Below, one piece after another: positions 693-55,438 of a stretch of 64,000 nt of DNA. The translations under genes were made by a program, and so were the position numbers. Position 1 is the stretch's first letter; each line of letters begins with the position of its first letter. Under the pieces are notes generated by a model. That model searched no databases, had not been told where the DNA came from, and saw only the letters and a program-made list of their open reading frames with translations. Origin of the DNA: an uncultured Gammaproteobacteria bacterium (GTDB lineage: Bacteria; Patescibacteriota; Microgenomatia; UBA1406; GWC2-37-13); NCBI GenBank assembly GCA_964452355.1, contig CAYVKV010000003.1, positions 31,152-95,151 of the forward strand. The letters are read 5' to 3'.

Positions 693-1247
693 ATGAGCTA
701 TCGATTCGGATTTACTCTCGTTGAGATGATTGTGGTAATTGCCATCATTGGAACATTGAGCACCATGGGTTTTGCCGCATATACCAATATCCAAGAGGAC
801 TCCCGCGCTTCTCGGATTGCTGCAGATTTTCAACAAATAAAACTTGCTATGAAAGTATGGAGGAGTAGTGGCAATACAGGACAGTACCCCAGAGAAACAA
901 CTTTATCTCCTGCAGTAAATTTTTGCACCTACAATTTTTATCCAATCAGGTTAACGGGCGCACAAACATATCTCGAAAACACCATGAGAGATCCATGGGG
1001 TCAAGAATATTTTTATGATAATGATGGCGATACCTATATCAGTGGCAATGGCGCAACACTTACCAGAGGTGTTAATGTAAACATCTGGGGATGTGGCAAC
1101 AATGCACAACGATATCGAGATGTCGTAGATCAAATTGATCGAACGATTGATGGTTCTGATGGAGCAAATAGTGGGCTTGTGCGTTGGGCAAATTCTGGAT
1201 CTGATTTTTATATTATGTTTTTGATCGTAAACAATGAGCTTCAATAG
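693..1247 (+). CDS. Prepilin-type N-terminal cleavage/methylation domain protein (type IV pilin / pseudopilin-like)
   Basis: The N-terminus MSYRFG|FTLVEMIVVIAIIGTLSTMGFAAY has a class III signal: Gly-1, Phe+1, Glu+5 and a hydrophobic helix. Two Cys in the C-terminal globular part. Confidence 0.8.
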   Translation: MSYRFGFTLVEMIVVIAIIGTLSTMGFAAYTNIQEDSRASRIAADFQQIKLAMKVWRSSGNTGQYPRETTLSPAVNFCTYNFYPIRLTGAQTYLENTMRDPWGQEYFYDNDGDTYISGNGATLTRGVNVNIWGCGNNAQRYRDVVDQIDRTIDGSDGANSGLVRWANSGSDFYIMFLIVNNELQ

Positions 1248-3984: not shown

Positions 3985-6064
3985 TCCTCCCATCCACCGC
4001 AGTCAGCACTTCTCCTGACACAATTAATGGATTTATATCGATCTCCGCAATCTGTTTATGACGGTCAAAGAGCGCTCCAACAGACAGTGCAACTTCATAA
4101 AGTTTTCGCGCATTTAGAGGAGGAGATCCTCTGAATGGTTTGGTTAATGCATCCAACTTACTGTTTTTGATCTCATGCATAAATTGAGCGTAAGTAAACG
4201 GATATACAAACTGCATTGTTTCGTGTAAAAGCTCTGCATATACGCCACCAATGCCGACCAGAGCAACGGTTCCAAATGTTGTGTCTTTTTTTGCTCCCAC
4301 AATCAGTTCATGCCCTGCATATTCCTTTTGAACATAACACCCCGATCCTTTCCCTCCCACGCGTTCCAATGTTTTGAATGCATTAACAAGCTCTTCCATA
4401 ACCGTGATACCGGTGATCACTCCTTTTATTTCTGTCTTGTGTGTTATTTTGTCAGTTGCTATTTTAGCAACCAGTGGAAACCCTTCTTGCTCAACGATCG
4501 TATCGAGATCCGAAACTGAAGTTGCATGAAAGATCTTTCCGGTTGCAATACCTGACCACTCAAGGAGTTTCAAAGAATCATATTGATTTAAGAACGGTTT
4601 CATACTATTTTCATTAAGAACTGCCTCAATGTCATACTTATGAGTGGAAAGCGGGATCGACAAATCAGATATGACCTTTTCTGTAATCCTTTGAGTTTTA
4701 ATTTCCTGGGCATCGATCATTTTAGAAAGTGCCCGAGGAAGCGCTGCAAAATATCTAAAACTTGCAATTCCTTCTTTTTCAAAAAATGTATGCGCCTCAG
4801 TTACTGATTTTTTGCCCATGAATATCGGGTAGAGCGGTTTAAATTTAAGTGAACGATATATTTTTTGAAGCACATGCGCCGTCTCGATAATCTCGGTATT
4901 TGCCTGTGGCGTCAGAAGGACAATGACACCGCCAATATCCTTTTCCTTCATCGTAAGATCAATCGCCTTTTTATAATCAAATGCACTCGCATCACCCAAG
5001 AGATCAATGGGATTGTGTATGCTAATTTTTTTGGTGTCTTCAAACGCTTGCTTCAGCTCTTCTGAGGTTGACTCTGAAACCGTGACCAGCTGAAGTTTCT
5101 GCTTCACAATCTCATCAGCAAGAAGCACTCCCATGCCACCGGCGTTTGAAAGGACAAGCATTCTGCGATTACTGGGTACCGCACCCAAACTATAGAGCGA
5201 AAGAAGCATCTGAAACTCAGCAAAAGAATCTGCGCGAATCGCCCCGGCTTGCTGAATGACGGCAGAAAACACCTCATCATCACCGACCATACTGCCCGTG
5301 TGAGACATTGCAGCCTTCGAGCCTTCAGCAGTTCGTCCTGATTTGAGCACAATTACTGGTTTTATTTTGGTAACTTGAGATATTATTTCTGAAAATGTAT
5401 CCCCATCAACAACATCTTCTAAATACATACCAATAACCTCAGTAGATTTGTCTGTGAGTAAATACTCAAGACAGTCCGATTCATTGATCACGCTTTTGTT
5501 GCCCAGGCTCACAAAATGAGAAATCCCGAGATGGGTCTTTGCCGCTGAATAATCAAGCATTGCACTTCCAAGTGCGCCTGATTGAGATATGATGCTGATA
5601 TTTCCCTTCTTCGGTACCGTATTAAAAAACGTGGCGTTCAAACTATTGTTTGTATTGATACACCCAATACAATTCGGCCCAAGAAGTGAAAGATTGTATC
5701 TTTTCGCTTTCTCAAGAAGTTGCTTTTCCAACTCATCTCCGTCAGTGGTCTTCGTCTCACCAAAACCGGCTGCAAACATGACCACATTGGTACATCCGAC
5801 CTGGTGAACGGAATCAAGATAGGAAACGGCGACTTTTGCCGGAACCGCCAGAACGACTAAATCAATTGATCTTCCTATGGAGTTCATGTCTTTGTACGTC
5901 TGTTTTCCAAGAATTGTTGCGCCTGAGGGATTGACGAAATAAAGTTCTTTGTCATATCCTTGGTCGATCATATTTTTTGCAACCAGATATCCGACTTTTT
6001 TTGGATTTTCTGAAACACCCACGATCGCAATAGAGCGGGGATTGAAGAATCTATTTAAGAGCAT
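3950..6064 (-). CDS. ADP-forming acetyl-CoA synthetase (acetate--CoA ligase), fused alpha/beta
   Basis: 704 aa. The N-terminus FFNPRSIAIVGVSENPKKVGY is a CoA-binding domain; this is followed by a succinyl-CoA-synthetase-like flavodoxin domain and a C-terminal ATP-grasp domain. The convergent 35-nt overlap with murF is seen directly. Confidence 0.8.
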   Translation of the reverse strand: MLLNRFFNPRSIAIVGVSENPKKVGYLVAKNMIDQGYDKELYFVNPSGATILGKQTYKDMNSIGRSIDLVVLAVPAKVAVSYLDSVHQVGCTNVVMFAAGFGETKTTDGDELEKQLLEKAKRYNLSLLGPNCIGCINTNNSLNATFFNTVPKKGNISIISQSGALGSAMLDYSAAKTHLGISHFVSLGNKSVINESDCLEYLLTDKSTEVIGMYLEDVVDGDTFSEIISQVTKIKPVIVLKSGRTAEGSKAAMSHTGSMVGDDEVFSAVIQQAGAIRADSFAEFQMLLSLYSLGAVPSNRRMLVLSNAGGMGVLLADEIVKQKLQLVTVSESTSEELKQAFEDTKKISIHNPIDLLGDASAFDYKKAIDLTMKEKDIGGVIVLLTPQANTEIIETAHVLQKIYRSLKFKPLYPIFMGKKSVTEAHTFFEKEGIASFRYFAALPRALSKMIDAQEIKTQRITEKVISDLSIPLSTHKYDIEAVLNENSMKPFLNQYDSLKLLEWSGIATGKIFHATSVSDLDTIVEQEGFPLVAKIATDKITHKTEIKGVITGITVMEELVNAFKTLERVGGKGSGCYVQKEYAGHELIVGAKKDTTFGTVALVGIGGVYAELLHETMQFVYPFTYAQFMHEIKNSKLDALTKPFRGSPPLNARKLYEVALSVGALFDRHKQIAEIDINPLIVSGEVLTAVDGRIIYTHNVHTDT

Positions 6065-6104
6065 ATCTCCTAAGTATATACAAATGAAAGATATTTGAGC
6101 AATA

Positions 6105-7844
6105 CTACTTTCGCTGATATATCCGTATCACCGGATGATCAAATACGGTCCACGTCTCCTCAGCTTCCTCATCGGGAAATTCAAAGAGTATTTGACCGAA
6201 TAGCTCGATGCGGGGATATGAACGAAACTCTGCAACCTTTTCAAATCCAAGATTTCCAGAAAAGAGATCTTGATAATACGCATTCACCAGAGGATATTCT
6301 TTTTCCAAAGATTCACATCTTTTTTCTTCATACGTATTTTTCATTTGCTGCAGAGTGCCCGAACTTTGAAGACAGGTATGATTCCAAAAAATACGACGAG
6401 AAGGAACGAAAATGTACTCAGCTTCCTCAATATGATCTTTCAATTCACTTTCGAGAATCTCATTTTTTTCTACTTCATAAAAATCAAAAGATATGGGTCT
6501 GAGATTCTTTTGAAAAACAATCTCATTATCAACAAGAGGATTTTGCATCGGAATATCTACCACATTCGCCGTTTCTGACAATATATATGCATCCGTAGGG
6601 ATATTGTTATATATCCATTCAGAAGCTTTAAATCGGACATCCGGAAACCGATAAATTGACACATATGCCGCTCCATATATCATGATCGCAATCACAATGA
6701 GTGACAGGGCGATCGAATGGAGCGTGTGCAGAATCTTGATTTTGACCCGAAGATTCATATCAATGAGTTGAATCAATACCAAACACCCGATAAGAATCAT
6801 GACCGGAAATACCGGTGAGTAGAACCGAGACCATTTCGCATACATAAATGCATTTGGAATGAATAATGCTATTGCAGCAAGTCGCAACAGGATATGAGAC
6901 TTATTCCACGGAAGAGAAAAGAACCCAAAAATCGAAAGAATAAAGAGGGGAATGCCAAGGGTGTAGGGAAAGACATGCAAAAACTGAAAAGCCAAAGGCA
7001 TCGTATACTCAAACTGTCGGGTGTAAAAAGCTTTATAAGTACCCAAGCCAACAGAAGATTCATAATTCATCGAATGAACAAAAGCCTCCCAATCAAGCAG
7101 ATTGTAGGGAGAGGTGATCACAAAAACGATAACGGAAAGAAGGCCAATTTTTATCAGTGAAAAAAACAGCGTAAAAATTGAACTGTTTTTTTCACTTCTA
7201 AACGAAGCAATAAAAATACTGAGAATAGGGATCACTGCAAAAAACATAGATGATACTTTCGTGCTTACGGCAAGACCAAAAATTACACCGGTCCATAAAA
7301 TATATCGAGTAAGCGGAAGATCCATTTGGAGAAACATAACCGCAAGATAGATCAGTATCGATACAAATAACATGAGCAGCGATTCGGTGGTTCCAAAATG
7401 TGCAAACTGGATAAAAACCGGTGAAAAAATAAACGTAATCAGTGCAATAAACACATTGCGAGTTGCTTTTTTAGAAAGTAATACCGCCACCTTTGTCATG
7501 ACAAATACGGTCAAAACCGATGAAATGGCTGATAGCACGCGAAGAGAAAGAACGGTTTCAACAAAATCTATGCGAAAAGTCTGCGTCCAAACGCTTGCTA
7601 TAGTCGTTAAGAAGTATCCAATAAAGAGCGGAATCTGACCATAGGCATAAAAACGGGGATTTAAACAATCAATATTCCACCCTTGGTGACAGGTCATGCC
7701 TAAAATGGCAACAACCATGTTTCGCTCATCGGGATGCATGGGATACGGAAGGCCCCAATCAAGTCCAATAAAGCGAGTATAGATGAGTGTGACAATGAGT
7801 GCTATCCAAAGTCCAAACTTCAATAGTGATTTTTTTACAATCAT
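6105..7844 (-). CDS. GT-C fold glycosyltransferase, family 39 / PMT_2-like (polyprenol-phosphate-sugar dependent)
   Basis: 579 aa and polytopic. The first loop carries GLPYPMHPDERN (an Asp-Glu motif typical of PMT/ArnT-like enzymes). About 150 aa soluble C-terminal domain. Confidence 0.65.
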   Translation of the reverse strand: MIVKKSLLKFGLWIALIVTLIYTRFIGLDWGLPYPMHPDERNMVVAILGMTCHQGWNIDCLNPRFYAYGQIPLFIGYFLTTIASVWTQTFRIDFVETVLSLRVLSAISSVLTVFVMTKVAVLLSKKATRNVFIALITFIFSPVFIQFAHFGTTESLLMLFVSILIYLAVMFLQMDLPLTRYILWTGVIFGLAVSTKVSSMFFAVIPILSIFIASFRSEKNSSIFTLFFSLIKIGLLSVIVFVITSPYNLLDWEAFVHSMNYESSVGLGTYKAFYTRQFEYTMPLAFQFLHVFPYTLGIPLFILSIFGFFSLPWNKSHILLRLAAIALFIPNAFMYAKWSRFYSPVFPVMILIGCLVLIQLIDMNLRVKIKILHTLHSIALSLIVIAIMIYGAAYVSIYRFPDVRFKASEWIYNNIPTDAYILSETANVVDIPMQNPLVDNEIVFQKNLRPISFDFYEVEKNEILESELKDHIEEAEYIFVPSRRIFWNHTCLQSSGTLQQMKNTYEEKRCESLEKEYPLVNAYYQDLFSGNLGFEKVAEFRSYPRIELFGQILFEFPDEEAEETWTVFDHPVIRIYQRK

Positions 7845-9887: not shown

Positions 9888-11150
9888 ATGAAATTACCCG
9901 CAAAAAAAATCACCGACATACTCCTTTATGTATCAATTGGTATTTTTTTGTTTGGGTCAGGATATAAACTTGCCGAGTGGAAGATAAAAAATTCCTCTCG
10001 AGACCAGCTTACCTACACTGTATTCAATGCGCAAAACAATTTACCAAAAGGTACGAAGGCTGAAAATGTCGATTTTAGTCTTTTTTGGGACACTTGGGAA
10101 AAAGTAGAGCAAAAATATGTTGATCGGGGAAAGATTGATCCACAAAAAATGTTTTACGGATCAATAAAAGGTATGGTTGCGTCTGTCGAGGATCCCTATA
10201 CTTTTTTCCTCACTCCGGAAGAAAACAAACAGTCAAAGGCTGATCTTGGAGGAAAATTTGAGGGCATTGGGGCCCAGTTGGGTCTTAAAGAAAATCGTAT
10301 CGTCATAATCGCCCCCCTCAAAGATTCACCGGCTGAAAGTGCTGGCGTGCTGTCGGGTGACATTATCACCAAAGTTGATGGGGAATCAACAGAAAAATGG
10401 ACCCTTCTCCAAACCGTTTCAAAAATTCGCGGAGATAATGGAACGGAAGTAATATTGACAGTCGCTCGCGCAAGTGGTGAAAAAGACATTCCAATCATTC
10501 GTCAAGAAATCAAAGTTCCATCGGTAGAACTAACATATGAGAAAAAGAATGGAAAAACAGTTGCATATCTTCGACTCAGTCAATTTGGGGACTCGACAAA
10601 TAATGAATGGGAGACTGCTGCAACTGAAATTGCAGACAAGTGGAGTAACAAAGAAATCGCCGGACTCGTACTTGATGTACGCGGCAATCCGGGCGGATAT
10701 CTTGAAAGTTCGGTATTTATTGCATCGGAATTTTTGGAACAAGGAAAAATGGTAGTAAAACAAGAAACAACCAATTCAGATGACCGGGTATATTCGGTGA
10801 AAAGAAATGGATTACTGCTTGATATCCCCTTGACCGTACTGATAAATCAAGGATCGGCATCTGCATCAGAAATTCTTTCTGGAGCATTGCGAGATCACAA
10901 ACGTGCGACGCTTGTGGGACAAAAAAGCTTTGGAAAAGGATCTGTTCAGGAAGCGCTTGATCTTCAGGATGGGGCCGGACTGCATGTCACGATTGCAAAA
11001 TGGCTTTTGCCAAATGGCGAATGGATCAATGGAAAAGGAATAGAGCCGGAAGTTTTGGTAGAAAATGAGGTAAATGAAGAAAGTACCCTTACCAATGAAC
11101 AGGATGCTCAACTTCAGAAAGCCCTTGAACTGGTGATAAATGGCAAATAA
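9888..11150 (+). CDS. Carboxyl-terminal processing peptidase (S41 family) with PDZ domain
   Basis: N-terminal TM. GGKFEGIGAQLG, PDZ segment SPAESAGVLSGDIITKVDG, DVRGNPGGYL, GSASASEI and FGKGSVQ are S41 signatures. Confidence 0.88.
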   Translation: MKLPAKKITDILLYVSIGIFLFGSGYKLAEWKIKNSSRDQLTYTVFNAQNNLPKGTKAENVDFSLFWDTWEKVEQKYVDRGKIDPQKMFYGSIKGMVASVEDPYTFFLTPEENKQSKADLGGKFEGIGAQLGLKENRIVIIAPLKDSPAESAGVLSGDIITKVDGESTEKWTLLQTVSKIRGDNGTEVILTVARASGEKDIPIIRQEIKVPSVELTYEKKNGKTVAYLRLSQFGDSTNNEWETAATEIADKWSNKEIAGLVLDVRGNPGGYLESSVFIASEFLEQGKMVVKQETTNSDDRVYSVKRNGLLLDIPLTVLINQGSASASEILSGALRDHKRATLVGQKSFGKGSVQEALDLQDGAGLHVTIAKWLLPNGEWINGKGIEPEVLVENEVNEESTLTNEQDAQLQKALELVINGK

Positions 11151-12357
11151 AATAACGTCTATGCGTATGAAACTGGTGAAATTCATAAACATCAAAGTCA
11201 TAGTATTACTGGTCTCCGCACTCATACTTCTCCTTTCTATTTTTAAAGATACGAAAATCATTCAATCATCTCCGTTTGCAAGAATTTTTGATTTTGGCTC
11301 AAACATGAAAAGCGATCAAGAGCCTGCAGAAACATCAACAACAAAAATTGTATCTGAAGAATCTATCGTCATAGAAGTGGTGGAAAACACGCTTCCATCG
11401 GTGGTCACTATTGGCATATCAAAAAAAACACGGACCCAGGGTACGATCCAAATCGATCCAAGCAATCCCTTTGCGCCATTTAAATCCGTTGAAGGTGAGG
11501 AAAAAACAATTGAACAAAATATAGGAAGTGGATTTATTATTTCAAAAGATGGAATCATTATCACAAATAAGCATGTTGTCCGCGATACTCAAGCCGCATA
11601 TACCGTCATCACCAACGACCAGAAAGAGTACGATGTCACCAAAATCTATCGTGACCCCTTAAACGACCTATCAATACTCAAAATTGAGGCAACTGATCTG
11701 AAACCACTTCCTTTGGGAGATTCTTCAAAACTCAAACTTGGTCAGCTTGCAATAGCAATCGGAACCCCCCTTGGTGAGTTTCAAAACACGATCACAACCG
11801 GCATCGTATCGGGTCTTGGACGAGGAATTACCGCCGGATCACCCTATGAAGGTTTTGTTGAAGAACTCGACAATGTCATACAAACTGATGCGGCAATCAG
11901 CCCGGGAAACTCAGGCGGACCACTCCTAAACTCTTCAGGTCAGGTCATTGGCGTAAATACCGCCATAGCGGGAGAAGGTCAGAATATTGGATTTGCGATT
12001 CCGGTCAACGTGGTCAAAGAACTCATCGCAACATTTGAGTCACAAGGAGGAACATTCGAGCGTCCCTATATCGGCGTACGATACAAAATGATTGATCAGA
12101 AAACGGCGATTCTGAATGAAGTTGTTGAAGGTGCGTTTGTTGAAACCATTATCAAAGATTCTCCCGCTGACACCGCAGGACTCTTGGAACAGGATATAAT
12201 CACCCGAGTTGATGGCAAAAAACTCGATGGTGAAAATGATCAAAGTTTGGCAAAGATTATTCTCAATAAAAAAGTGGGCGACACCATGGATCTTGACGTC
12301 TGGCGAGATGGAAAAGTACTCAACATTACGATCATTCTTGAGGCATTTAGTGAGTAA
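11140..12357 (+). CDS. htrA: HtrA/DegP-family serine protease (S1C) with C-terminal PDZ
   Basis: N-terminal TM. GSGFIISKDGIIITNKHVV (His), DLSILK (Asp), GNSGGPLLN (Ser), and PDZ segment SPADTAGLLEQDIITRVDG. Overlaps the S41 gene by 11 nt. Confidence 0.85.
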   Translation: MANKITSMRMKLVKFINIKVIVLLVSALILLLSIFKDTKIIQSSPFARIFDFGSNMKSDQEPAETSTTKIVSEESIVIEVVENTLPSVVTIGISKKTRTQGTIQIDPSNPFAPFKSVEGEEKTIEQNIGSGFIISKDGIIITNKHVVRDTQAAYTVITNDQKEYDVTKIYRDPLNDLSILKIEATDLKPLPLGDSSKLKLGQLAIAIGTPLGEFQNTITTGIVSGLGRGITAGSPYEGFVEELDNVIQTDAAISPGNSGGPLLNSSGQVIGVNTAIAGEGQNIGFAIPVNVVKELIATFESQGGTFERPYIGVRYKMIDQKTAILNEVVEGAFVETIIKDSPADTAGLLEQDIITRVDGKKLDGENDQSLAKIILNKKVGDTMDLDVWRDGKVLNITIILEAFSE

Positions 12358-22317: not shown

Positions 22318-23244
22318 ATGAAAACAATCTACGTAGTCACCGGTCAAACCGCATCAGGCAAAACTTCATATGCGATAAATCTTGCAAAAGAACTGAATGG
22401 AGAACTGATTAATGCAGACTCGAGACAAATATATAAACATATGGATATCGTCACCGGGAAAGATCTTCATTTGACTCAAGGAGCATTTCAATTGGTTAAT
22501 TTAATTAATGGTTTTGACATTGGGTATTATATGATTCCAATGGTACATTCAAAAATTTGGTTGTATGACATCGGAGAGCCGAACATTCATTTTTCAGCTT
22601 TTGATTATAAAATCTGTGCGCTGAATTGCATCGAAAAAATATTCAACAATCAGAAAGTGCCTATTATTGTTGGCGGAAGCTACCTATATATCAAGAATTT
22701 ACTCTTTAACACCATTGATATCCATGTTCCTCCCGATGTAGGATTGAGAGCTGAACTTTCTGAACTATCGGTTGACGATCTTCAAACAAAACTTAATAAA
22801 ATTAACTCTGCGATTTTGAACACTATGAATGAAAGCGATCGAAAGAATCCCCATCGATTGATCAGAAAAATTGAGATCTTATCAAATGCAAAATCTCAAA
22901 ATAATGATACTTCATCCATTCCTATTGCTGAGAAATATAATATTAAACTGATTGGATTTCGACATAAGGACCCTATTGCCCTTGAAAAGCTCATTGAAAA
23001 AAGAATAAACGAGAGAATTGAAAATGGTGCATTTGACGAAGTGAAAAAACTTCAACAAATGAACTTTACCGATGAAACCCCCGGATTAAATGCAATCGGA
23101 TATAAGCAAATCATCTCATATTTAAATGAAAATATTTCTTATGATGAGTTGATATCGGAATGGAAGACGAAGGAAGTACAATATGCAAAACGTCAATATA
23201 GCTTCATGAAACAAAATGAGAATATTAATTGGATAAACAAATGA
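22318..23244 (+). CDS. miaA: tRNA dimethylallyltransferase
   Basis: 308 aa. P-loop VVTGQTASGKTSYAINLAKELNGELINADSRQIYKHMDIVTGK. Ends with TGA at a normal length. Confidence 0.9.
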   Translation: MKTIYVVTGQTASGKTSYAINLAKELNGELINADSRQIYKHMDIVTGKDLHLTQGAFQLVNLINGFDIGYYMIPMVHSKIWLYDIGEPNIHFSAFDYKICALNCIEKIFNNQKVPIIVGGSYLYIKNLLFNTIDIHVPPDVGLRAELSELSVDDLQTKLNKINSAILNTMNESDRKNPHRLIRKIEILSNAKSQNNDTSSIPIAEKYNIKLIGFRHKDPIALEKLIEKRINERIENGAFDEVKKLQQMNFTDETPGLNAIGYKQIISYLNENISYDELISEWKTKEVQYAKRQYSFMKQNENINWINK

Positions 23245-23288
23245 TAATCAGTTGATATAACTATGTTTTCGTGAAATAATCATTGTAT

Positions 23289-23537
23289 ATGGCTCTTTCA
23301 TTTATCACCAAGGTAGATAAACAACCTGAAAAAAACCACACACCGATTGACACTAAAAAGCTATCTGAACCTACAAAAGTTGTAAATACCCATACTGCGG
23401 TGAGCAATAAAAAGGGTCTCTCAAAAATCCATATACCATTTGAATTTGATAAATATATCCTCATAATCATCGTCTCCGTATTGTTTTTCATATCTGGATT
23501 CGGGTTTTGGATATATGTGAATTATTTTATGTCCTAA
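23289..23537 (+). CDS. Hypothetical small membrane-anchored protein
   Basis: ATG at 23289 (the track start 23283 is TTG). Basic/polar N-terminal part and a single C-terminal TM (ILIIIVSVLFFISGFGFWIYV). Lies directly upstream of the surface-protein pair. An antisense ORF competes. Confidence 0.35.
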   Translation: MALSFITKVDKQPEKNHTPIDTKKLSEPTKVVNTHTAVSNKKGLSKIHIPFEFDKYILIIIVSVLFFISGFGFWIYVNYFMS

Positions 23538-23547
23538 ATAGAAACAC

Positions 23548-24861
23548 ATGGCTCTCGTAAAACAAATCCCAAAAAAAAATATCTTTCTCCTGATCTCGAC
23601 TTCCCTCTTTATTTTAGGGGTAATCTTTTTTTCATTAGCAATCCAAAGATACCAGGTACTTACCTCCTCACGAGCCGAAGATTTCGACCATTACTGTAGG
23701 ATTGATCCAAATGATTGTAAAGCAGGAAATGAATGTTCAAAGGATGGGAGAACCTGTGAAATTAAAACATCAACCTGTGCAAATGGGGTGTATAAAGTAA
23801 ATAAATTTATTTGCGGACCAGGAACGGTCGCGCAGAATCAATACATTTGGAAAGCTCTTGATCAAAATAGTACCGCCTCTTCGTATTGTTCTGGTACTTT
23901 TACCTGTGGACAAGCAACAGCTACCCCAACACCCGGCCAAGCAGGGACAGGCACATGGAACCAATGTGATGCAAGTGGATCAAATAAACCATGCGGGAGC
24001 TGTAGTGTTACAGATATTACAGTCGGTGCCGGTGGTGCTGCTTCAACGACCTTTGGCTGCCAGCTCCTTTGTAATCCTGGTAATTGTCCTTCTGGAACAT
24101 ACCAAATTAATGACACTTCATGGTTTTGGTGCTCTAATAAAGATGGTGCCTCATGCACCCAAGGGAATAGTGACTTGATCGCAAATGTTCATAATACATC
24201 AAGTGTCGGTTCTTTGACTATTAGCGATGCCAGTCCCAATGCTACAAACAATGGCTTCAGTTGGAGCTTTACTATTCCTAATTGGACAGGCTGTGGACGA
24301 GTTCAGACTGACGTTCAAATCAACGCACAAGGCGTGAGCGTAGCTGGTTTAACGAAGAGCTTTGGGTCTGACTGTGCAACAGCACCAACAAACACACCTC
24401 CTCCGGGAACTACGAATACTCCCACAACTCCTCCAAATAATACTAACACGCCGACAACTCCTCCGGGAACTACGAATACTCCCACAACTCCTCCAAATAA
24501 TACTAACACGCCGACAACTCCTCCTACAAATACCCCAACTCATACACCGACAGCAGTCCCACCTACAAGTACGCCAACCAAGACTCCAACAAATACTCCC
24601 ACAAGTACCCCAACAAAGACCGCGACTCCGGTACCAACAAATACTCCCGTTCCAACGAACACTCCGGTACCTACAGCAACTCCGGTACCAACAAACACAC
24701 CGATTCCTCCGACACCAACGACGGTGGTGATCGCACAAGCACCAACTGCGACTCCAACACCAGTGAAGCAACTTACGGTTGACAATCAAAAACCGGGAAT
24801 CACTCCATGGGCACTGATATTGGTACCCATTGGATTGCTGCTCCTTGGACTATTGCTATAA
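23548..24861 (+). CDS. Secreted Cys-rich protein with Thr/Pro-rich linker and conserved hydrophobic C-terminal tail
   Basis: 437 aa. Signal anchor plus IQRYQVLTSSRAED, a ~250 aa region with about 20 Cys, a PTNTP/TPTx linker, and the tail [31 protein letters not shown]. Confidence 0.8.
   Translation: MALVKQIPKKNIFLLISTSLFILGVIFFSLAIQRYQVLTSSRAEDFDHYCRIDPNDCKAGNECSKDGRTCEIKTSTCANGVYKVNKFICGPGTVAQNQYIWKALDQNSTASSYCSGTFTCGQATATPTPGQAGTGTWNQCDASGSNKPCGSCSVTDITVGAGGAASTTFGCQLLCNPGNCPSGTYQINDTSWFWCSNKDGASCTQGNSDLIANVHNTSSVGSLTISDASPNATNNGFSWSFTIPNWTGCGRVQTDVQINAQGVSVAGLTKSFGSDCATAPTNTPPPGTTNTPTTPPNNTNTPTTPPGTTNTPTTPPNNTNTPTTPPTNTPTHTPTAVPPTSTPTKTPTNTPTSTPTKTATPVPTNTPVPTNTPVPTATPVPTNTPIPPTPTTVVIAQAPTATPTPVKQLTVDNQKPGITPWALILVPIGLLLLGLLL
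24401..24520 (+). repeat. Perfect 60-nt tandem duplication inside the Thr/Pro linker
   Basis: 24401-24460 is identical to 24461-24520. It encodes PGTTNTPTTPPNNTNTPTTP twice. Confidence 0.95.
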
Positions 24862-24870
24862 TCTAAATAT

Positions 24871-26001
24871 ATGTCGAGAAAAAGCGTAATGGTCTTGTTC
24901 TCGATACTGCTGATTAGTATTGCAGTGGTCTTGATTTCATTTAGCATCCAAAAATATAGAGTTCTTACCAAGTCTCGGGCCGAAGGACAAAAAACCACTG
25001 AAATGGCTTGTAATACCACTGTCCAACTACTCTCGGATAAATGTTCATCGGGAGTTCTCAATCGAGATGTTTGCGAATTCAAAAATAACAACACAGATAC
25101 TGCACAAGGATGGACAAAATATAAAACACAGGGAGATCCAAAATATGAAAATGTGGACTACTCAAGTATGGGTGCTGGAACTATCAAAATGACTCCCAAT
25201 GGAAGCTCGACGTACTCTGCAGGAGCATATACCCAGGCTTCTGTGACACCAGAAAAAGTGTACTGTGCAAGCTGGCGATGGGGTGCACCTGGAGGACCAG
25301 GCGACCATGGTCGTACTCTCGGGATAGATCCTTATGGTGGCACAGATCCAAACTCTCCAAATGTCATCTGGGGAAACACTCATAGGGGGGCTGGTAGACA
25401 CCTTGATTATGTCCCTCCTGATGTAAATGTGGATATTAAAACAATCGCCAAAAGCACATCGATTACGGTATTTTATAAAGTGGATTACACAGGTAACTCG
25501 AATGATAGCTTGATTTATATCGATGGTATCAACCTCTATGATGAAGGAGTACCGCATTCAGCAATAGCTACGTTGACGCCAACGCCAACTCAGGATATCG
25601 GAAATCCAACACCTACTCTCACTCCTACAACGACGCCATCAACAACTCTCACTGCTACTCCTACTACATCTCCCACTGGTACTCCAATACCAACTCCTAC
25701 TCTCACCAAAACTTCGACACCTTCACCAACTCATACGCTTACCCCAACTTTGACACCAACCCTAACTCCAATACCAACTGCCATTCCAACACAAACTTCT
25801 ACACCCACACCGACAGCGACTCCAATCCCAACCAATACGCCTGTTCCAACAAGTACATTAACCCCAACCAATACGCCTGTTCCAATAAATACTCCAACAC
25901 CAATTACTCAACTTACGGTTGACAATCAAAAACCGGGAATCACTCCATGGACTCTGATATTGGTACCCATTGGATTGTTACTGCTTGGATTGCTACTATA
26001 A
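24871..26001 (+). CDS. Secreted protein (possible beta-sandwich/carbohydrate-binding-like domain) with Thr/Pro linker and the same C-terminal tail
   Basis: 376 aa. Signal anchor plus [14 protein letters not shown], a ~190 aa globular part, a TPTxTPT linker, and the tail [31 protein letters not shown]. Confidence 0.8.
25909..26001 (+). repeat. Dispersed ~93-nt repeat (second copy; the first is at 24769-24861) encoding the shared C-terminal tail
   Basis: The copies are offset by exactly 1140 nt. The first 42 nt are identical (caacttacggttgacaatcaaaaaccgggaatcactccatgg); about 9 mismatches overall by eye. Confidence 0.9.
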
Positions 26002-26116: not shown

Positions 26117-27844
26117 TTATTTGTTGAACAACTTCGTGAAGACTTCTTTCGGCACTTCCACTTTCCCGATCATTTTCATTTTCTTTTTTCCTTCTTTTTG
26201 TTTTTCAAGAACCTTCTTTTTACGACTCACATCACCACCTCCAACGGTCTTACCACCTTTGGTCAAAACATCTTTTCGAAAGGGTGATAACCTCTCTGAT
26301 GCAATGATCTTTCCCTTGTATTGCGCTTGAATTTTTACTTCAAACTGCTGACGAGGAATCAAATCTTTCATGCTTTTTGTCAAATGTGCTGCAATTTTTT
26401 GTGCGTGCTCATGCACAACAATTTGAGAAAATTCTTCAATTTCATCTCCGTTTAAAAGAAGTAACAGGCGTGAGGCATCGACTATTTCATATCGAAGCAT
26501 CTCCCAGTCAAATGAGGCATATCCGGAAGTCACGGATTTTAACTGATCAAAAAAGTCTGAGATCATTTCGGCAAGGGGCATTTCATATTCGATGGAAACT
26601 TGATTTTTATTGTCCATATGTTTAAATGTTGCACGATGATCTTCACACAGCTGCATAACTCCTCCAAGATATTCTTGTGGCGTTATTATAAGAACTTTGA
26701 CAATAGGTTCTTTGATCTGGTCCCCTTCTATTTGATAATCAACTTGTGGAGGAGTCAAGACGAGACTTAAGTCATACTCGCGTTCGAGTCGTTCACGGAT
26801 AACATCAGCGTGGAGCAGTCCTAAAAACCCAACACGATACCCTGCACCAAGCGCCTGACTGTACATTGGTTTAAACTCAAGGGCCGAATCGGTCAGATAG
26901 ATTTTTTCAAGTGCTTTCATAAGTCGCTCGTAATCTGCTGCATCGGTGGGAAACAGTGATGCAAATACCACCGGATTAACTTTTTTATACCCCGGTACGC
27001 CAACACTTTTCCCTTGATCAATTACCGAATCACCGACTCGAACATCCCGGATATCTTTGAGATTGGTGACAATGTATCCGATCTCACCTGCTGAAATTGA
27101 GGTTTGCGCGACAAGGTCGGGAGTAAAGATGCCCACTTCTGTTGATTCAAAAATGCGATTTCCAATGGCAAGCTTCATTTTCATCCCTCGGCGTGCGTGT
27201 CCTTCAAAAATACGAACAAATGCAATCACTCCTTTGTGAGTATCAAAATATGAATCAAAAATGAGCGCTTTTAAAAGATCATCAGATTCAACAAAATCCG
27301 GAAGTGCTGGTGGAGGAGGAATTTTTTCAATAATAGCCGAAAGTACTTTTTCAACATTTTGTCCGGTTTTTGCAGAAATTTGAATAACTTCTTCTGGGTA
27401 AACTCCAAGAAAATCCGAGAGTGCATTGATCGTTTTTTCAACTTCCGCGTTTGGCATATCAATTTTATTGACTACCGGAATGATCACCAAATTTTTATCA
27501 AGTGCTTTGTAGATATTTGAGATTGTCTGAGCTTGAATTCCTTGTGTTGCGTCAACGAGAAGTACCGCACCTTCGACACATGCAAGCGTTCGATCAACTT
27601 CATAGGAAAAATCCACATGCCCCGGAGTATCGATCAAGTTTAATATATATTCTCCATAGTTCATACGTACAGGAGCTAGTTTGATTGTTATGCCACGCTC
27701 ACGAGAGATTGGATTCCGATCCAACATCTGTTCATCATGTTTATTTTTATCGATCGTTCCCGTCATCTCCAAAAGACGATCTGCAAGAGTTGACTTGCCG
27801 TGGTCTACATGAGCGATAATAGCAAAGTTTCGAATTTGTTTCAT
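26117..27844 (-). CDS. lepA: Elongation factor 4 (LepA)
   Basis: MKQIRNFAIIAHVDHGKSTLADRLL, DTPGHVDF and NKID GTPase motifs, plus a LepA-specific C-terminal domain. ATG at 27844 is preferred over 27877. Confidence 0.95.
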   Translation of the reverse strand: MKQIRNFAIIAHVDHGKSTLADRLLEMTGTIDKNKHDEQMLDRNPISRERGITIKLAPVRMNYGEYILNLIDTPGHVDFSYEVDRTLACVEGAVLLVDATQGIQAQTISNIYKALDKNLVIIPVVNKIDMPNAEVEKTINALSDFLGVYPEEVIQISAKTGQNVEKVLSAIIEKIPPPPALPDFVESDDLLKALIFDSYFDTHKGVIAFVRIFEGHARRGMKMKLAIGNRIFESTEVGIFTPDLVAQTSISAGEIGYIVTNLKDIRDVRVGDSVIDQGKSVGVPGYKKVNPVVFASLFPTDAADYERLMKALEKIYLTDSALEFKPMYSQALGAGYRVGFLGLLHADVIRERLEREYDLSLVLTPPQVDYQIEGDQIKEPIVKVLIITPQEYLGGVMQLCEDHRATFKHMDNKNQVSIEYEMPLAEMISDFFDQLKSVTSGYASFDWEMLRYEIVDASRLLLLLNGDEIEEFSQIVVHEHAQKIAAHLTKSMKDLIPRQQFEVKIQAQYKGKIIASERLSPFRKDVLTKGGKTVGGGDVSRKKKVLEKQKEGKKKMKMIGKVEVPKEVFTKLFNK

Positions 27845-27895
27845 AGTACATTCTTTCACAATGATGTATTGTACCAAAATACTGATTTATAAATG

Positions 27896-49895: not shown

Positions 49896-50564
49896 ATGCA
49901 AAATGTTGGATTTAATTCATTGAGAATACGCAGCCTCTTCTTGATTGCAGTGCTCTTATTAAGCTTATTGCTGCCATCAATGAATAGATCAATCATCCAA
50001 GCAGCAGATACACCAACGCCGTCGCCAATAACTCCAACAGTGACTCCAATTACTCCAACCGCAACGCCAATAACTCCAACAGTGACTCCAATTACTCCAA
50101 CCGCAACGCCAATAACTCCAACAGAAACGCCAACAAATACTCCAACACATTCTCCAACCCCTACCAATCAACCGGCAAATGTTGCCGTTGCTACAGCAAC
50201 TCCAACCGAAACCCCAACGCCATCTCCAACTCCTAAAGAAAAATCGACAGATATAACGCCCCCTGACTTGATCGATTCTGAATTACCGGAAAATACAATG
50301 ATTGGCCCACCAGCACCGCGTCAGATGATGAGACAACCGGGACAACAAAATCCTCAGGGACAAGTAAAATCTTCATTTGATGAAGGGGGTCCCGACAATA
50401 TTTTGGATAGTAAGCCAAAAGGTGGTAGTAGTGGGGTAATAAAAATCTTTGTCACGGTAATCGCGCTTACCATAGCAGGAGTAGTCGGCTGGATTGCCAT
50501 TCAATCAAATAAACCTATGGACATTGCAAAAGATAATGACGAGAGCGAGCAACCCATAGAATAG
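49896..50564 (+). CDS. Secreted Thr/Pro-repeat protein with QGQVKS motif and C-terminal TM anchor
   Basis: 222 aa. Signal peptide (..SIIQA|AD), (PITPTVTPITPTAT)n repeats, NPQGQVKSSF, and the TM VIKIFVTVIALTIAGVVGWIAI plus an acidic tail. Starts 8 nt after the flippase stop. Confidence 0.75.
   Translation: MQNVGFNSLRIRSLFLIAVLLLSLLLPSMNRSIIQAADTPTPSPITPTVTPITPTATPITPTVTPITPTATPITPTETPTNTPTHSPTPTNQPANVAVATATPTETPTPSPTPKEKSTDITPPDLIDSELPENTMIGPPAPRQMMRQPGQQNPQGQVKSSFDEGGPDNILDSKPKGGSSGVIKIFVTVIALTIAGVVGWIAIQSNKPMDIAKDNDESEQPIE
50024..50125 (+). repeat. 42-nt tandem repeat (~2.4 units) in the Thr/Pro linker
   Basis: 50024-50065 is identical to 50066-50107, and a partial third unit begins at 50108. 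Each unit encodes PITPTVTPITPTAT. Confidence 0.9.
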
Positions 50565-53049: not shown

Positions 53050-53115
53050 CTGCATTTCTCTTTCTGTTTTGAAATGTAGTTACAAAATGGTCGATTTAAT
53101 TGGTAGGATAAGGAT

Positions 53116-55368: not shown

Positions 55369-55438
55369 ATGTAATACATATGTAGTTACATATGAATTAC
55401 TCTTGCATTCAGAGACCGGACTTGCTACCTTATAAATA

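What the first reader, a model, noticed from the sequence alone, without database searches (positions are those of the whole stretch)
23548..26001. Two tandem surface proteins share a signal-anchor motif and a conserved C-terminal tail that looks like an undescribed sorting signal
The globular parts are unrelated: one is Cys-rich, the other is a Cys-poor putative beta-sandwich. Both genes nevertheless begin with a TM plus IQ(R/K)Y(Q/R)VLT(S/K)SRAE(D/G). Both end, after a Thr/Pro linker, with [14 protein letters not shown](A/T)[15 protein letters not shown]-stop. The tail DNA is about 90 percent identical over 93 nt (24769-24861 versus 25909-26001) and identical over the first 42 nt, far more conserved than the rest of the genes. 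The layout (linker, short polar motif with Pro-Gly, hydrophobic helix) parallels LPXTG, PEP-CTERM and PGF-CTERM signals. However, the motif matches none of them and lacks the usual basic tail. No sortase or exosortase-like gene is in the window.
Basis: partly seen in the sequence, partly recalled or inferred. Interest (0 to 1): 0.7.

Follow-up and report, generated by a model that had tools for sequence, protein, structure and literature searches.

The report
Shared anchor tail on surface proteins
Two neighbouring surface-protein genes of an uncultured, small-genome bacterium (Microgenomates, Roizmanbacteria-like) share an uncatalogued 30-residue C-terminal membrane tail and a special export leader, a cassette that recurs on many unrelated proteins beside one tiny membrane-protein gene; whether the tail is cut off or simply holds the protein in the membrane is still open.

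Summary
ORF A (23548-24861) and ORF B (24871-26001) share a leader (membrane helix + IQ(R/K)Y(Q/R)VLTxSRA) and a tail ([14 protein letters not shown] + 16 hydrophobic residues, then stop).

It is not a private duplication. I found 63 complete distinct tail-bearing proteins (57 distinct tails), with at least 7 unrelated passenger types, in Roizmanbacteria, Woesebacteria and related contigs. The genes nearly always lie in one slot, between the housekeeping genes miaA and lepA.

The tail is under protein-level selection. Invariant Pro, Gly and Thr positions each use all four codons. All 57 tails have exactly 16 residues after the Trp and no charged residue.

No Pfam or NCBIfam model matches the tail. 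Homologous passengers carry a different C-terminal module instead, so the tail is an exchangeable anchoring module.

- Leader and tail co-occur in 57 of 63 proteins.
- Every complete array (12 of 12) holds one gene for a 60-90 aa tail-anchored membrane protein (window 23289-23537).

No sortase, exosortase, rhomboid or CPBP gene is in the window, and none recurs next to the arrays.

"Undescribed C-terminal anchor domain" is supported. "Cleaved sorting signal" is untested. I slightly favour an uncleaved anchor helix that docks to the small protein.

The parts
23252..23280 (+). Promoter-like site (TTGATA-17-AATAAT, with TG) upstream of the small gene; possible start of a three-gene operon
   Evidence: This is a consensus match only (10 of 12), and the number of such sites in the region is not above the shuffles. 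Weak evidence.
23289..23537 (+). Small gene (82 aa): hydrophilic N-terminal part with NHTP(I/L)D..KK, then one C-terminal membrane helix ...ILIIIVSVLFFISGFGFWIYVNYFMS. It is the conserved partner of the arrays.
   Evidence: 32 clusters, found in Roizmanbacteria and Woesebacteria; T18, P19, S63, F73 and W74 invariant; K24, K55, G70 and V77 at least 90% conserved; present once in 12 of 12 complete miaA-lepA arrays; next to tail-bearing genes in every further contig checked. No Pfam or NCBIfam hit.
23548..24861 (+). ORF A (437 aa), a tail-bearing surface protein with a Cys-rich passenger
   Evidence: Orthologues in L001, L022, L026, L033 and P0015.
23548..23676 (+). Leader of ORF A (aa 1-43): basic start, 21-residue hydrophobic stretch, then IQRYQVLTSSRA. 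S-R-A fits the small-x-small (-3/-1) rule for signal peptidase I.
   Evidence: the motif is in 57 of 63 complete tail-bearing proteins. Cleavage is inferred, not shown.
23677..24381 (+). Passenger domain of ORF A (aa 44-278, 18 Cys), predicted beta-rich, fold not determined
   Evidence: mean pLDDT 43.9, too low for a fold search. No Pfam or NCBIfam hit.
24382..24768 (+). Thr/Pro linker of ORF A (129 aa, 69% T+P), encoded partly by tandem DNA repeats
   Evidence: a 60-nt unit repeated 2.2 times at 24394-24524.
24769..24861 (+). Tail of ORF A: [14 protein letters not shown] + [16 protein letters not shown] + stop
24871..26001 (+). ORF B (376 aa), a tail-bearing surface protein with a beta-sandwich passenger
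24871..24981 (+). Leader of ORF B (aa 1-37), ending in [12 protein letters not shown]
   Evidence: leader DNA of A and B is only moderately alike (74% mean column identity), so the similarity is at protein level.
24982..25566 (+). Passenger of ORF B (aa 38-232): jelly-roll beta-sandwich resembling carbohydrate-binding modules
   Evidence: strands 82-226, with blocks of pLDDT 87-97. Foldseek against PDB gives CBM61 (2xon, E 1e-5, TM 0.66 on the target), CBM16, CBM4 and CBM22. Fold-level resemblance only.
25567..25908 (+). Thr/Pro linker of ORF B (114 aa, 67% T+P), predicted disordered
25909..26001 (+). Tail of ORF B: [14 protein letters not shown] + [16 protein letters not shown] + stop
   Evidence: Its first 14 codons are identical to ORF A's. 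ORF B orthologues elsewhere have NLTVQG(Q/R)PPG or NLTVNEQPPG, which points to gene conversion from ORF A.

Best explanation
The locus is a lineage-specific surface-protein cassette of Microgenomates (candidate phyla radiation). It sits between the housekeeping genes miaA and lepA.

Each protein has four parts:
1. A conserved Sec-type leader: ...G(V/I)(I/L)FFSLAIQ(K/R)YQV(L)TxSRA.
2. A freely exchanged passenger domain. In ORF B this is a fold like a carbohydrate-binding module; in ORF A it is Cys-rich; in a relative it is a family 28 glycoside hydrolase (GH28).
3. A Thr/Pro stalk of 100-150 residues.
4. A 30-residue C-terminal domain: (L/I)(T/A)Vxx(Q)(P/K)PGx(T)PW, then exactly 16 uncharged hydrophobic residues (xxIxxPxGLxLxGLxL), then the stop codon.

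Proposed mechanism; every step below is inferred. The leader drives Sec export and is probably removed after S-R-A by signal peptidase I. The stalk carries the passenger away from the membrane through the wall or S-layer. The tail stays as a sequence-specific membrane helix, N-terminus outside and free C-terminal Leu at the inner face. This helix packs against the co-encoded 60-90 aa tail-anchored membrane protein. That protein's conserved Lys/Arg just before its helix could supply, in trans, the positive charge the tail lacks.

Shown here:
- Modularity, distribution and the fixed genomic slot.
- Protein-level constraint on the tail.
- Co-occurrence of leader and tail.
- Co-location with the small gene.
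- Absence from Pfam and NCBIfam.

Not shown: topology, any cleavage, and any physical contact between the tail and the small protein.
For: - **Tail on many proteins.** It is at the extreme C-terminus of 63 complete distinct proteins and gives 57 distinct tail sequences. All-against-all BLAST of 52 tail-bearing ORFs from the loci gave 14 groups, at least 7 of them with a substantial passenger domain.
- **Rarity.** A tail profile against 1.84 billion representative proteins gave 24 hits at E<=1e-3. Of these, 22 are real and all are C-terminal.
- **Constraint beyond hydrophobicity.** All 57 tails have exactly 16 residues after the Trp, no charged residue, and a last residue of Leu (55) or Phe (2). 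Most helix positions carry more than 3 bits.
- **Protein-level selection.** The invariant P, G, T and P+6 each use all four codons, and G+13 uses three.
- **Exchangeable anchor.** ORF B orthologues P0002 and P0003, and the neighbour and paralogue of P0028 (L053 6596-7252), carry a different Cys-flanked, Asp/Asn-rich C-terminal module. More distant relatives P0009-P0011 end in a helix plus RRRR.
- **Small gene.** One copy is present in 12 of 12 complete arrays and in four further contigs reached through it. In L017 and L019 its stop overlaps the start of the next tail-bearing gene. In the window it ends 10 nt before ORF A.
- **Leader.** It is present in 57 of 63 tail-bearing proteins and absent from the orthologues that lack the tail.
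- **No enzyme nearby.** No sortase, exosortase, rhomboid or CPBP gene is in the window, and none recurs within about 10 kb of the arrays.
- **Contrast within the window.** The other surface proteins in the window (three M23 paralogues) use ordinary helices with basic ends.
Against: - No direct evidence of contact between the tail and the small protein; no multimer prediction was possible with these tools.
- The most conserved tail block, (P/K)PGxTPW, lies outside the membrane, where the small protein has almost no residues. Something else may read it.
- P0028 and the L014 and L009 proteins carry the tail outside the slot, with no small gene adjacent. Co-location is therefore not obligatory, although the small gene may exist elsewhere in those genomes.
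- Conserved Pro and Gly inside a helix are also typical of substrates of intramembrane proteases.
- A 17-residue hydrophobic stretch with no charged stop is short for a stable anchor.
Confidence: 0.45

Rival explanations
1. True sorting signal. After Sec export, an enzyme encoded elsewhere in the genome recognises and cleaves the tail at or next to the PGxTP motif. The enzyme could be a sortase-type transpeptidase, a rhomboid-type or CPBP-type intramembrane protease, or an unknown one. The passenger is then transferred to the wall, a lipid or an S-layer, and the helix is discarded.
For: - The layout parallels LPXTG, PEP-CTERM and PGF-CTERM: low-complexity linker, Pro/Gly/Thr motif at the membrane edge, hydrophobic helix, extreme C-terminus, many unrelated passengers.
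- A nearly invariant Thr (56 of 57) sits three residues before the helix. Thr is the P1 residue of sortase substrates; that is established knowledge, not tested here.
- A sortase family is reported as near ubiquitous in Microgenomates (PMC6744442, read).
- Conserved Pro and Gly lie inside the helix.
- One tail-bearing gene (L009) has a rhomboid gene 1.3 kb downstream, and another (L014) has an M50 protease nearby.
- The tail is interchangeable with another anchoring module.
Against: - All 57 tails lack the basic cluster that is part of the textbook description of sortase and exosortase-type signals (the comparison rests on my own knowledge).
- The helix is conserved in sequence and in exact length to the last residue. 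That is unexpected for a part that is thrown away.
- No NCBIfam C-terminal signal model matches even at E<=10.
- PGxTP does not fit LPXTG-type spacing.
- There are only 1-4 substrates per array. No enzyme gene recurs within about 10 kb across the arrays checked, whereas small dedicated sorting systems usually keep enzyme and substrate adjacent.
- The rhomboid and M50 neighbours are single cases.
Confidence: 0.3
2. Plain membrane anchor with no specific partner. Leader and tail look conserved only because the array genes descend from one ancestor and keep exchanging ends by recombination through the repetitive Thr/Pro-coding DNA.
For: - Gene conversion is visible in the window. The first 14 tail codons of ORF A and ORF B are identical, and ORF B carries the ORF A-type variant.
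- The genes sit in tandem arrays in one slot.
- The linkers are tandem-repeat DNA.
- The family is small and lineage-restricted.
Against: - The invariant P, G, T and P+6 each use all four codons across lineages. Synonymous codon differences (9766) outnumber non-synonymous ones (8146) over all pairs.
- There are no indels in the 16-residue segment across 57 tails, from Roizmanbacteria to Woesebacteria.
- Leader DNA of A and B is only moderately alike, although the peptide motif is kept.
- The tail is also kept on proteins outside the array (P0028, L014, L009).
- Ordinary anchors in the same window have basic ends and diverge freely between paralogues.
Confidence: 0.15
3. Hairpin anchoring. The leader is not cleaved, and the N-terminal and C-terminal helices pair in the membrane. 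The two conserved strands just outside the membrane (YQVLT and LTV) would contact each other, so the passenger becomes a large external loop.
For: - Leader and tail co-occur in 57 of 63 proteins, and both are lost together in P0002 and P0003.
- The leader's hydrophobic stretch is about 20 residues long and conserved in sequence, more like a membrane helix than a typical signal-peptide core.
- Both conserved motifs lie on the outer side of the membrane.
Against: - P0028, the GH28 protein P0017/P0035 and the L014 protein carry the tail with ordinary or different N-termini.
- The (S/T)-x-A site is conserved at a fixed position. It aligns with the VKA|A site of the orthologues that lack the tail, which fits signal peptidase cleavage.
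Confidence: 0.07

Closest known systems
LPXTG-type sortase signals of Gram-positive bacteria, often paired with the YSIRK-type signal peptide
   Same: - Extreme C-terminal position after a Pro/Thr-rich wall-spanning linker.
- A short Pro/Thr/Gly motif just before a hydrophobic helix.
- Occurrence on many unrelated surface proteins.
- Pairing of a special leader motif with a special C-terminal signal.
- Host lineage reported to encode sortases (PMC6744442).
   Different: - The motif is (P/K)PGxTPW, not LPXTG, NPQTN or LAXTG.
- There is no basic tail.
- The helix has a fixed length and a conserved sequence.
- The leader motif lies after the hydrophobic core, whereas YSIRK lies before it.
- No NCBIfam or Pfam LPXTG model matches.
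- No sortase gene lies nearby.
PGF-CTERM / archaeosortase A and PEP-CTERM / exosortase signals
   Same: - A Pro-Gly-x motif at the outer edge of a C-terminal helix.
- A preceding Thr-rich stalk, probably glycosylated, as in haloarchaeal S-layer glycoprotein.
- A modular domain on diverse passengers.
   Different: - No match to the TIGRFAM/NCBIfam models.
- TPW is inserted between PGx and the helix.
- No Arg/Lys cluster at the end.
- No exosortase or archaeosortase gene was seen in the window or the flanks.
GlyGly-CTERM / rhombosortase and other substrates of intramembrane proteases
   Same: - A type I helix with helix-breaking Pro and Gly.
- One rhomboid gene lies near one tail-bearing gene (L009).
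   Different: - No GlyGly motif and no basic end.
- The rhomboid neighbour is a single case.
- Rhomboids are widespread housekeeping genes.
Eukaryotic GPI-attachment signals
   Same: The protein ends in a purely hydrophobic stretch with no charged residue after it, preceded by a short polar spacer.
   Different: - Different domain of life.
- The small-residue omega-site pattern is not evident.
- No transamidase is known in bacteria.
- This is a resemblance of form only, drawn from my own knowledge.
Simple C-terminal transmembrane anchors of candidate phyla radiation surface and pilus proteins (for example PamC, PamD and PamR in bioRxiv 10.64898/2026.03.03.709456)
   Same: Sec-exported proteins of candidate phyla radiation bacteria held in the membrane by a single C-terminal helix.
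   Different: In the locus studied here the helix and the motif just outside the membrane are one conserved, transferable domain. It is linked to a dedicated leader and to a small membrane-protein gene.

Membership tests
Sortase (LPXTG-type) sorting signal | LPXTG-like pentapeptide (LPXTG, NPQTN, LAXTG or LPNTA) matched by the curated models | tested here: not met
   No NCBIfam or Pfam hit for the whole proteins at E<=1 or for the tails alone at E<=10. The motif is (P/K)PGxTPW.
Sortase (LPXTG-type) sorting signal | Hydrophobic segment followed by a cluster of basic residues | tested here: not met
   No charged residue after the Trp in 57 distinct tails. Every protein ends in L or F.
Sortase (LPXTG-type) sorting signal | A sortase in the same genome that cleaves after Thr | not testable with these tools
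   No sortase in the window or in flanks of about 10 kb. Whole genomes could not be read. The literature says sortases are near ubiquitous in Microgenomates.
Exosortase / archaeosortase signals (PEP-CTERM, PGF-CTERM and relatives) | Match to one of the curated C-terminal signal models (signature motif + helix + Arg-rich end) | tested here: not met
   no hits. No basic end.
Exosortase / archaeosortase signals (PEP-CTERM, PGF-CTERM and relatives) | Co-occurring exosortase or archaeosortase (EpsH family) gene | tested here: inconclusive
   None found among the ORFs scanned in the window and in the flanks of the arrays. The rest of each genome was not seen.
Generic C-terminal protein-sorting or anchoring domain (criteria used by Haft and co-workers) | Located at the extreme C-terminus, on several non-homologous proteins, more than one per genome, after a low-complexity linker | tested here: met
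   1-4 per array, at least 7 passenger types, always ending at the stop codon.
Generic C-terminal protein-sorting or anchoring domain (criteria used by Haft and co-workers) | Alternates with other anchors on homologous passengers ('choice of anchor') | tested here: met
   P0002 and P0003 versus ORF B, P0001 and P0004-P0007. L053 6596-7252 versus P0028. P0009-P0011 end in a helix plus RRRR.
Generic C-terminal protein-sorting or anchoring domain (criteria used by Haft and co-workers) | A dedicated processing enzyme with a matching phylogenetic profile | not testable with these tools
   Only neighbourhoods could be read. The only gene with a matching distribution and location is the 60-90 aa membrane protein, which has no evident catalytic residues.
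Sec signal peptide cleaved by signal peptidase I (the leader) | Basic start, hydrophobic core, small residues at -3 and -1 | tested here: inconclusive
   Basic start, core of about 20 residues, and (S/T/P)-x-A conserved in all 44 distinct leaders. No signal-peptide predictor was available. The 11-residue stretch between core and site is unusually long.
Carbohydrate-binding-module-like beta-sandwich (ORF B passenger) | Jelly-roll fold similar to solved CBM structures | tested here: met
   (fold level only, 10-18% identity). No sequence-family membership. Sugar binding was not tested.

The most novel reading that the evidence does not exclude
A new three-part surface-anchoring or sorting system specific to a branch of the candidate phyla radiation. 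It would consist of a dedicated leader, a charge-free PGxTPW tail of fixed length and a 60-90 aa tail-anchored membrane protein. The system would work without a sortase or exosortase. The small protein might act as the receptor or clamp for the tails. Alternatively, the system could be a new processing pathway, possibly the membrane attachment of the still unidentified S-layer or adhesin proteins of these episymbiotic bacteria.
Probability: 0.25. Interest if true: 0.8.

Novelty: new variant of a known kind. Interest (0 to 1): 0.55.

Why it matters
Candidate phyla radiation bacteria live attached to other cells, yet how they display surface proteins is almost unknown. This cassette marks a small, fast-changing set of surface proteins in Roizmanbacteria, Woesebacteria and their relatives. 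The set includes lectin-like, Cys-rich and glycoside hydrolase passengers.

- The leader and tail give a simple sequence handle for finding these proteins in metagenomes.
- The locus points to a tiny membrane protein as a testable partner.
- If the tail is processed, it would define a new bacterial sorting pathway.
- If it is not processed, it is an example of a sequence-specific, charge-free C-terminal anchor, which is unusual for bacteria.
- Either way, the domain and the small protein family deserve curated models. None exists in Pfam or in NCBIfam release 20.

Tried and rejected
- **Tail-only search of the 5.8-billion protein index.** One candidate, no hit. I take this as a limit of the word index and bias filter, not absence, because later searches found the family.
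- **Exact look-up of ORF A and ORF B.** Not on record, so the source genome is not in that collection.
- **Pfam and NCBIfam scans.** Nothing for the whole proteins, tails, leaders, small protein or the alternative C-terminal module. The only passenger hit was GH28 in P0017. The 'dockerin-like' look of the alternative module is by eye only and unconfirmed.
- **Degenerate DNA pattern scans.** These gave about 10 chance hits that translate to PGLTPWA..P.GL in Acidobacteriota or soil DNA. They are not at ORF ends and were rejected.
- **Neighbourhood search for an enzyme.** The rhomboid (L009) and M50 protease (L014) near single tail-bearing genes do not recur, so I do not treat them as partners. 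The S41 C-terminal processing peptidase and HtrA-like protease 12 kb upstream in the window were considered, because a PDZ domain could bind a hydrophobic C-terminus. Their synteny with the array could not be checked, and the C-terminus is expected on the cytoplasmic side.
- **Screen for LPXTG-type ends and TLxTC sortase motifs.** None in any Microgenomates-type locus held.
- **AlphaFold model of ORF A.** pLDDT 43.9, too poor for a fold search, so none was run.
- **Literature.** No paper mentions the motif or a C-terminal sorting signal in Microgenomates.
- **Cluster look-up.** No source names for the hits.
Full report
**1.

ORF A (23548-24861, 437 aa) and ORF B (24871-26001, 376 aa) lie on the + strand, 9 nt apart. 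They sit between miaA (22318-23244) and lepA (26117-27877, minus strand).

Both begin with a basic start and a hydrophobic stretch of about 20 residues, followed by IQRYQVLTSSRAE or [13 protein letters not shown]. Both end, after Thr/Pro linkers of 129 and 114 aa (69% and 67% T+P), with [14 protein letters not shown](A/T)[15 protein letters not shown]-stop.

The tail DNA is 90% identical over 93 nt, and the first 42 nt are identical. A degenerate DNA pattern for the tail core matches only these two sites in the window and never in 100 shuffles. Six-frame motif scans also find only these two copies.

The passengers are unrelated:
- ORF A has 18 Cys. Its AlphaFold model is unreliable (pLDDT 43.9).
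- ORF B folds confidently into a jelly-roll beta-sandwich (strands 82-226). Its helices are residues 3-37 and 360-375, with a disordered linker between the sandwich and the C-terminal helix.
- The ORF B sandwich resembles carbohydrate-binding modules CBM61, CBM16, CBM4 and CBM22.

**2. The tail is not a private duplication**

Homologues of the ORF B passenger come from Candidatus Roizmanbacteria and relatives. Five of them end in the same kind of tail, for example NLTVQGQPPGVTPWIFIFVPVGLLLLGLFL.

I ran one degenerate-pattern scan of GTDB species genomes, one of JGI metagenomes, and a profile search of 1.84 billion representative proteins. With the neighbours of those hits, the totals are:
- 63 complete distinct tail-bearing proteins and 57 distinct tails.
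- 14 groups from all-against-all BLAST of the passengers of 52 locus ORFs, at least 7 with a substantial passenger domain. P0017, found only in the profile search, adds a GH28 glycoside hydrolase passenger.

The family is rare. Only 22 true clusters at 50% identity exist among 1.84 billion representatives, and most clusters have 1-4 members. The named sources are Roizmanbacteria and Woesebacteria. Several MAGs titled Gammaproteobacteria or Weeksellaceae carry the same Microgenomates-type synteny and are probably mislabelled.

**3. The tail is a constrained domain**

In all 57 distinct tails:
- Exactly 16 residues follow the Trp.
- None of those residues is charged.
- The last residue is Leu (55) or Phe (2).

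P-5, G-4, W0, P+6 and G+13 are invariant; part of this follows from how the tails were selected. T-2 (56 of 57), P-1, G+8, L-12 and V-10 are nearly invariant.

Across 41 distinct tail DNAs, the invariant Pro, Gly (-4) and Thr positions each use all four codons, and G+13 uses three. Synonymous codon differences outnumber non-synonymous ones. Selection therefore acts on the peptide, not on a DNA element.

The near-identity of the two tails in this window is a separate, local effect. ORF B carries the [10 protein letters not shown] variant typical of ORF A orthologues (L001, L026, L033). ORF B orthologues elsewhere have NLTVQG(Q/R)PPG or NLTVNEQPPG. This indicates a short gene-conversion tract. 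Four of the five codon differences between the two tails are synonymous.

**4. Not a catalogued signal**

Pfam and NCBIfam (release 20, June 2026) give no hit for the whole proteins at E<=1. They give none for four tails alone at E<=10 and none for the leaders. Full-text searches found no description of the motif or of a C-terminal sorting signal in these bacteria.

**5. Evidence that the tail is an anchoring module**

Homologous passengers occur with other C-termini:
- P0002 and P0003 (Roizmanbacteria) have the ORF B-type passenger. They end in a Cys-flanked, Asp/Asn-rich module and lack both the tail and the IQxYQV leader.
- In L053, two adjacent paralogues differ in the same way. One ends in that alternative module and the other (P0028) in TPPGSTPWGFYAFPIGLILLGFLL.
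- More distant relatives (P0009-P0011) end in a helix followed by RRRR.

This 'choice of anchor' pattern, the Thr/Pro stalk and the Sec-type leader all point to cell-surface display.

**6.

*Leader and tail are coupled.* 57 of 63 complete tail-bearing proteins have the leader ...G(V/I)(I/L)FFSLAIQ(K/R)YQV(L)TxSRA. Conservation reaches into the hydrophobic core. The (S/T/P)-x-A end fits the -3/-1 rule of signal peptidase I and aligns with the VKA|A site of the orthologues that lack the tail. The exceptions (P0028, the GH28 protein, L014) show that the tail can work with another N-terminus.

*Every array contains one small gene.* In the window it is 23289-23537 (82 aa), ending 10 nt before ORF A and preceded by a promoter-like site.
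- The family has 32 clusters at 90% identity, again from Roizmanbacteria and Woesebacteria.
- It has a hydrophilic N-terminal part with an invariant T-P, a conserved Lys/Arg just before the helix, and a C-terminal helix ending ...SILxFIAGFSFW(I/M)(Y/F)Vx(Y/F)(F/M)L. S, F and W in that helix are invariant and G is at least 90% conserved.
- All 12 loci that show both the miaA and lepA flanks hold exactly one copy and 1-3 tail-bearing genes. One further array without the miaA flank (L006) holds four tail-bearing genes.
- Four further contigs reached through the small protein, including its most divergent member, have tail-bearing genes beside it.
- In L017 and L019 its stop codon overlaps the next gene's start.

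**7. Search for a processing enzyme**

The window has no sortase, exosortase, rhomboid or CPBP domain. This rests on Pfam scans of 20 ORFs without an obvious identity. The remaining ORFs are recognisable housekeeping or glycosyltransferase genes by their translations. A screen for TLxTC motifs and LPXTG-type ends found none in any Microgenomates-type locus.

Flanks of up to 10 kb around the arrays show the same housekeeping synteny. The order is gyrB, pyrophosphatase, gyrA, folD, miaA, the array, lepA, pyruvate kinase.

Single cases do not recur: a rhomboid 1.3 kb from the L009 gene and an M50 protease near the L014 gene. An S41 C-terminal processing peptidase and an HtrA-like protease lie 12 kb upstream in the window, and their linkage could not be tested.

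Méheust et al. 2019 report a sortase family as near ubiquitous in Microgenomates (PMC6744442). An unlinked enzyme therefore remains possible. Genome-wide co-occurrence could not be tested, because each large collection could be scanned only once.

**8. Interpretation**

Shown:
- A modular leader / passenger / stalk / tail architecture.
- A fixed genomic slot.
- Peptide-level constraint on the tail.
- Coupling to the leader and to the small gene.
- Absence from the curated libraries.

Inferred mechanism (confidence 0.45): Sec export, leader removal after SRA, the stalk spanning the envelope, and the tail retained as a sequence-specific helix that packs against the small membrane protein. The conserved juxtamembrane Lys/Arg of the small protein may replace the missing basic end of the tail.

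I prefer this to a cleaved signal (0.30) for four reasons:
- The helix is conserved in sequence and exact length to its last residue.
- It has no basic end.
- There are few substrates per genome.
- No enzyme is adjacent, whereas a membrane partner always is.

The strongly conserved external block (P/K)PGxTPW, the near-invariant Thr and the helix-breaking Pro and Gly keep the sorting-signal reading alive. A plain anchor kept alike by descent and conversion (0.15) is disfavoured by the codon data and by the absence of indels. A hairpin with an uncleaved leader (0.07) is disfavoured by tails that occur with other N-termini.

**9. Comparison and novelty**

In form it is closest to the LPXTG (plus YSIRK leader), PGF-CTERM and PEP-CTERM signals. 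It fails their defining features: signature motif, basic cluster and model match. It should not be filed under any of them.

It meets the general criteria for a C-terminal sorting or anchoring domain, except for a demonstrated enzyme. I rate it a new variant of a known kind. It is of moderate interest because it is lineage-restricted and functionally untested, but it gives a concrete and testable three-part system in bacteria whose surface biology is largely unknown.

Noticed in passing
window 50827-57706: Three tandem paralogues (740-755 aa), each with a Peptidase_M23 domain and an ordinary C-terminal membrane helix followed by a basic tail. A 222-aa Thr/Pro-rich protein with a helix and an acidic end lies just upstream (49896-50564). 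This looks like a second surface-protein cluster with conventional anchors.
   Followed up: partly
window 9888-12357: An S41 C-terminal processing peptidase (PDZ + Peptidase_S41) overlaps an HtrA-like trypsin/PDZ protease, 12 kb upstream of the array. S41 enzymes read hydrophobic C-termini. Any link to the tail is untested.
   Followed up: partly
L004, L011, L021, L032, L037, L041, L042, L044, L046, L047: The chance hits of the DNA pattern in Acidobacteriota or soil contigs all translate to PGLTPWA(K/R)xxxPxGL. They are not at ORF ends, and L046 has two copies in tandem. This looks like a dispersed repeat element in those genomes.
   Followed up: no
L006-L010, L013-L015: MAG records titled 'uncultured Gammaproteobacteria' or 'Weeksellaceae' carry the Microgenomates-type gyrA-folD-miaA-array-lepA synteny and tail-bearing genes. 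They are probably mislabelled or contaminated bins.
   Followed up: no
L003 around 5700-6600 and L024 (Roizmanbacteria GW2011_GWA2_37_7): One tail-bearing gene is out of frame with its upstream part, with the break inside the Thr/Pro linker. This is either an assembly error in repetitive DNA or a pseudogene.
   Followed up: partly
L008 2620-4476, L013 3373-5229, L056 13149-15005, L060 11301-13133: A conserved ORF of about 610 aa lies between lepA and the pyruvate kinase gene in some lineages. It has no Pfam hit and only weak viperin / radical-SAM-like NCBIfam hits (E about 4e-4). The window has a methyltransferase-like ORF (by comparison with L019) at that position instead.
   Followed up: partly
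P0002, P0003; L053 6596-7252: An alternative C-terminal module of about 45-60 aa, with flanking Cys and Asp/Asn-rich stretches, ending ...FEYWRRAFY or ...LQFFINYLI. It replaces the tail on homologous passengers. It looks dockerin-like by eye but has no Pfam or NCBIfam match, so it may be another uncatalogued anchoring module.
   Followed up: partly
window 24001-26000; 24394-24524: Strongly negative GC skew (-0.21) and a 60-nt tandem repeat (2.2 copies, 98% matches). Both come from the ACN/CCN codons of the Thr/Pro linkers.
   Followed up: yes
window 693-1247 and 6105-7844: 693-1247 is a type IV pilin-like gene (N_methyl + T2SSG). 6105-7844 (minus strand) is a 579-aa ORF with a hydrophobic N-terminus and no Pfam hit. 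By eye it recalls GT-C / PMT-like glycosyltransferases, which could glycosylate the Thr/Pro stalks. This is untested.
   Followed up: partly
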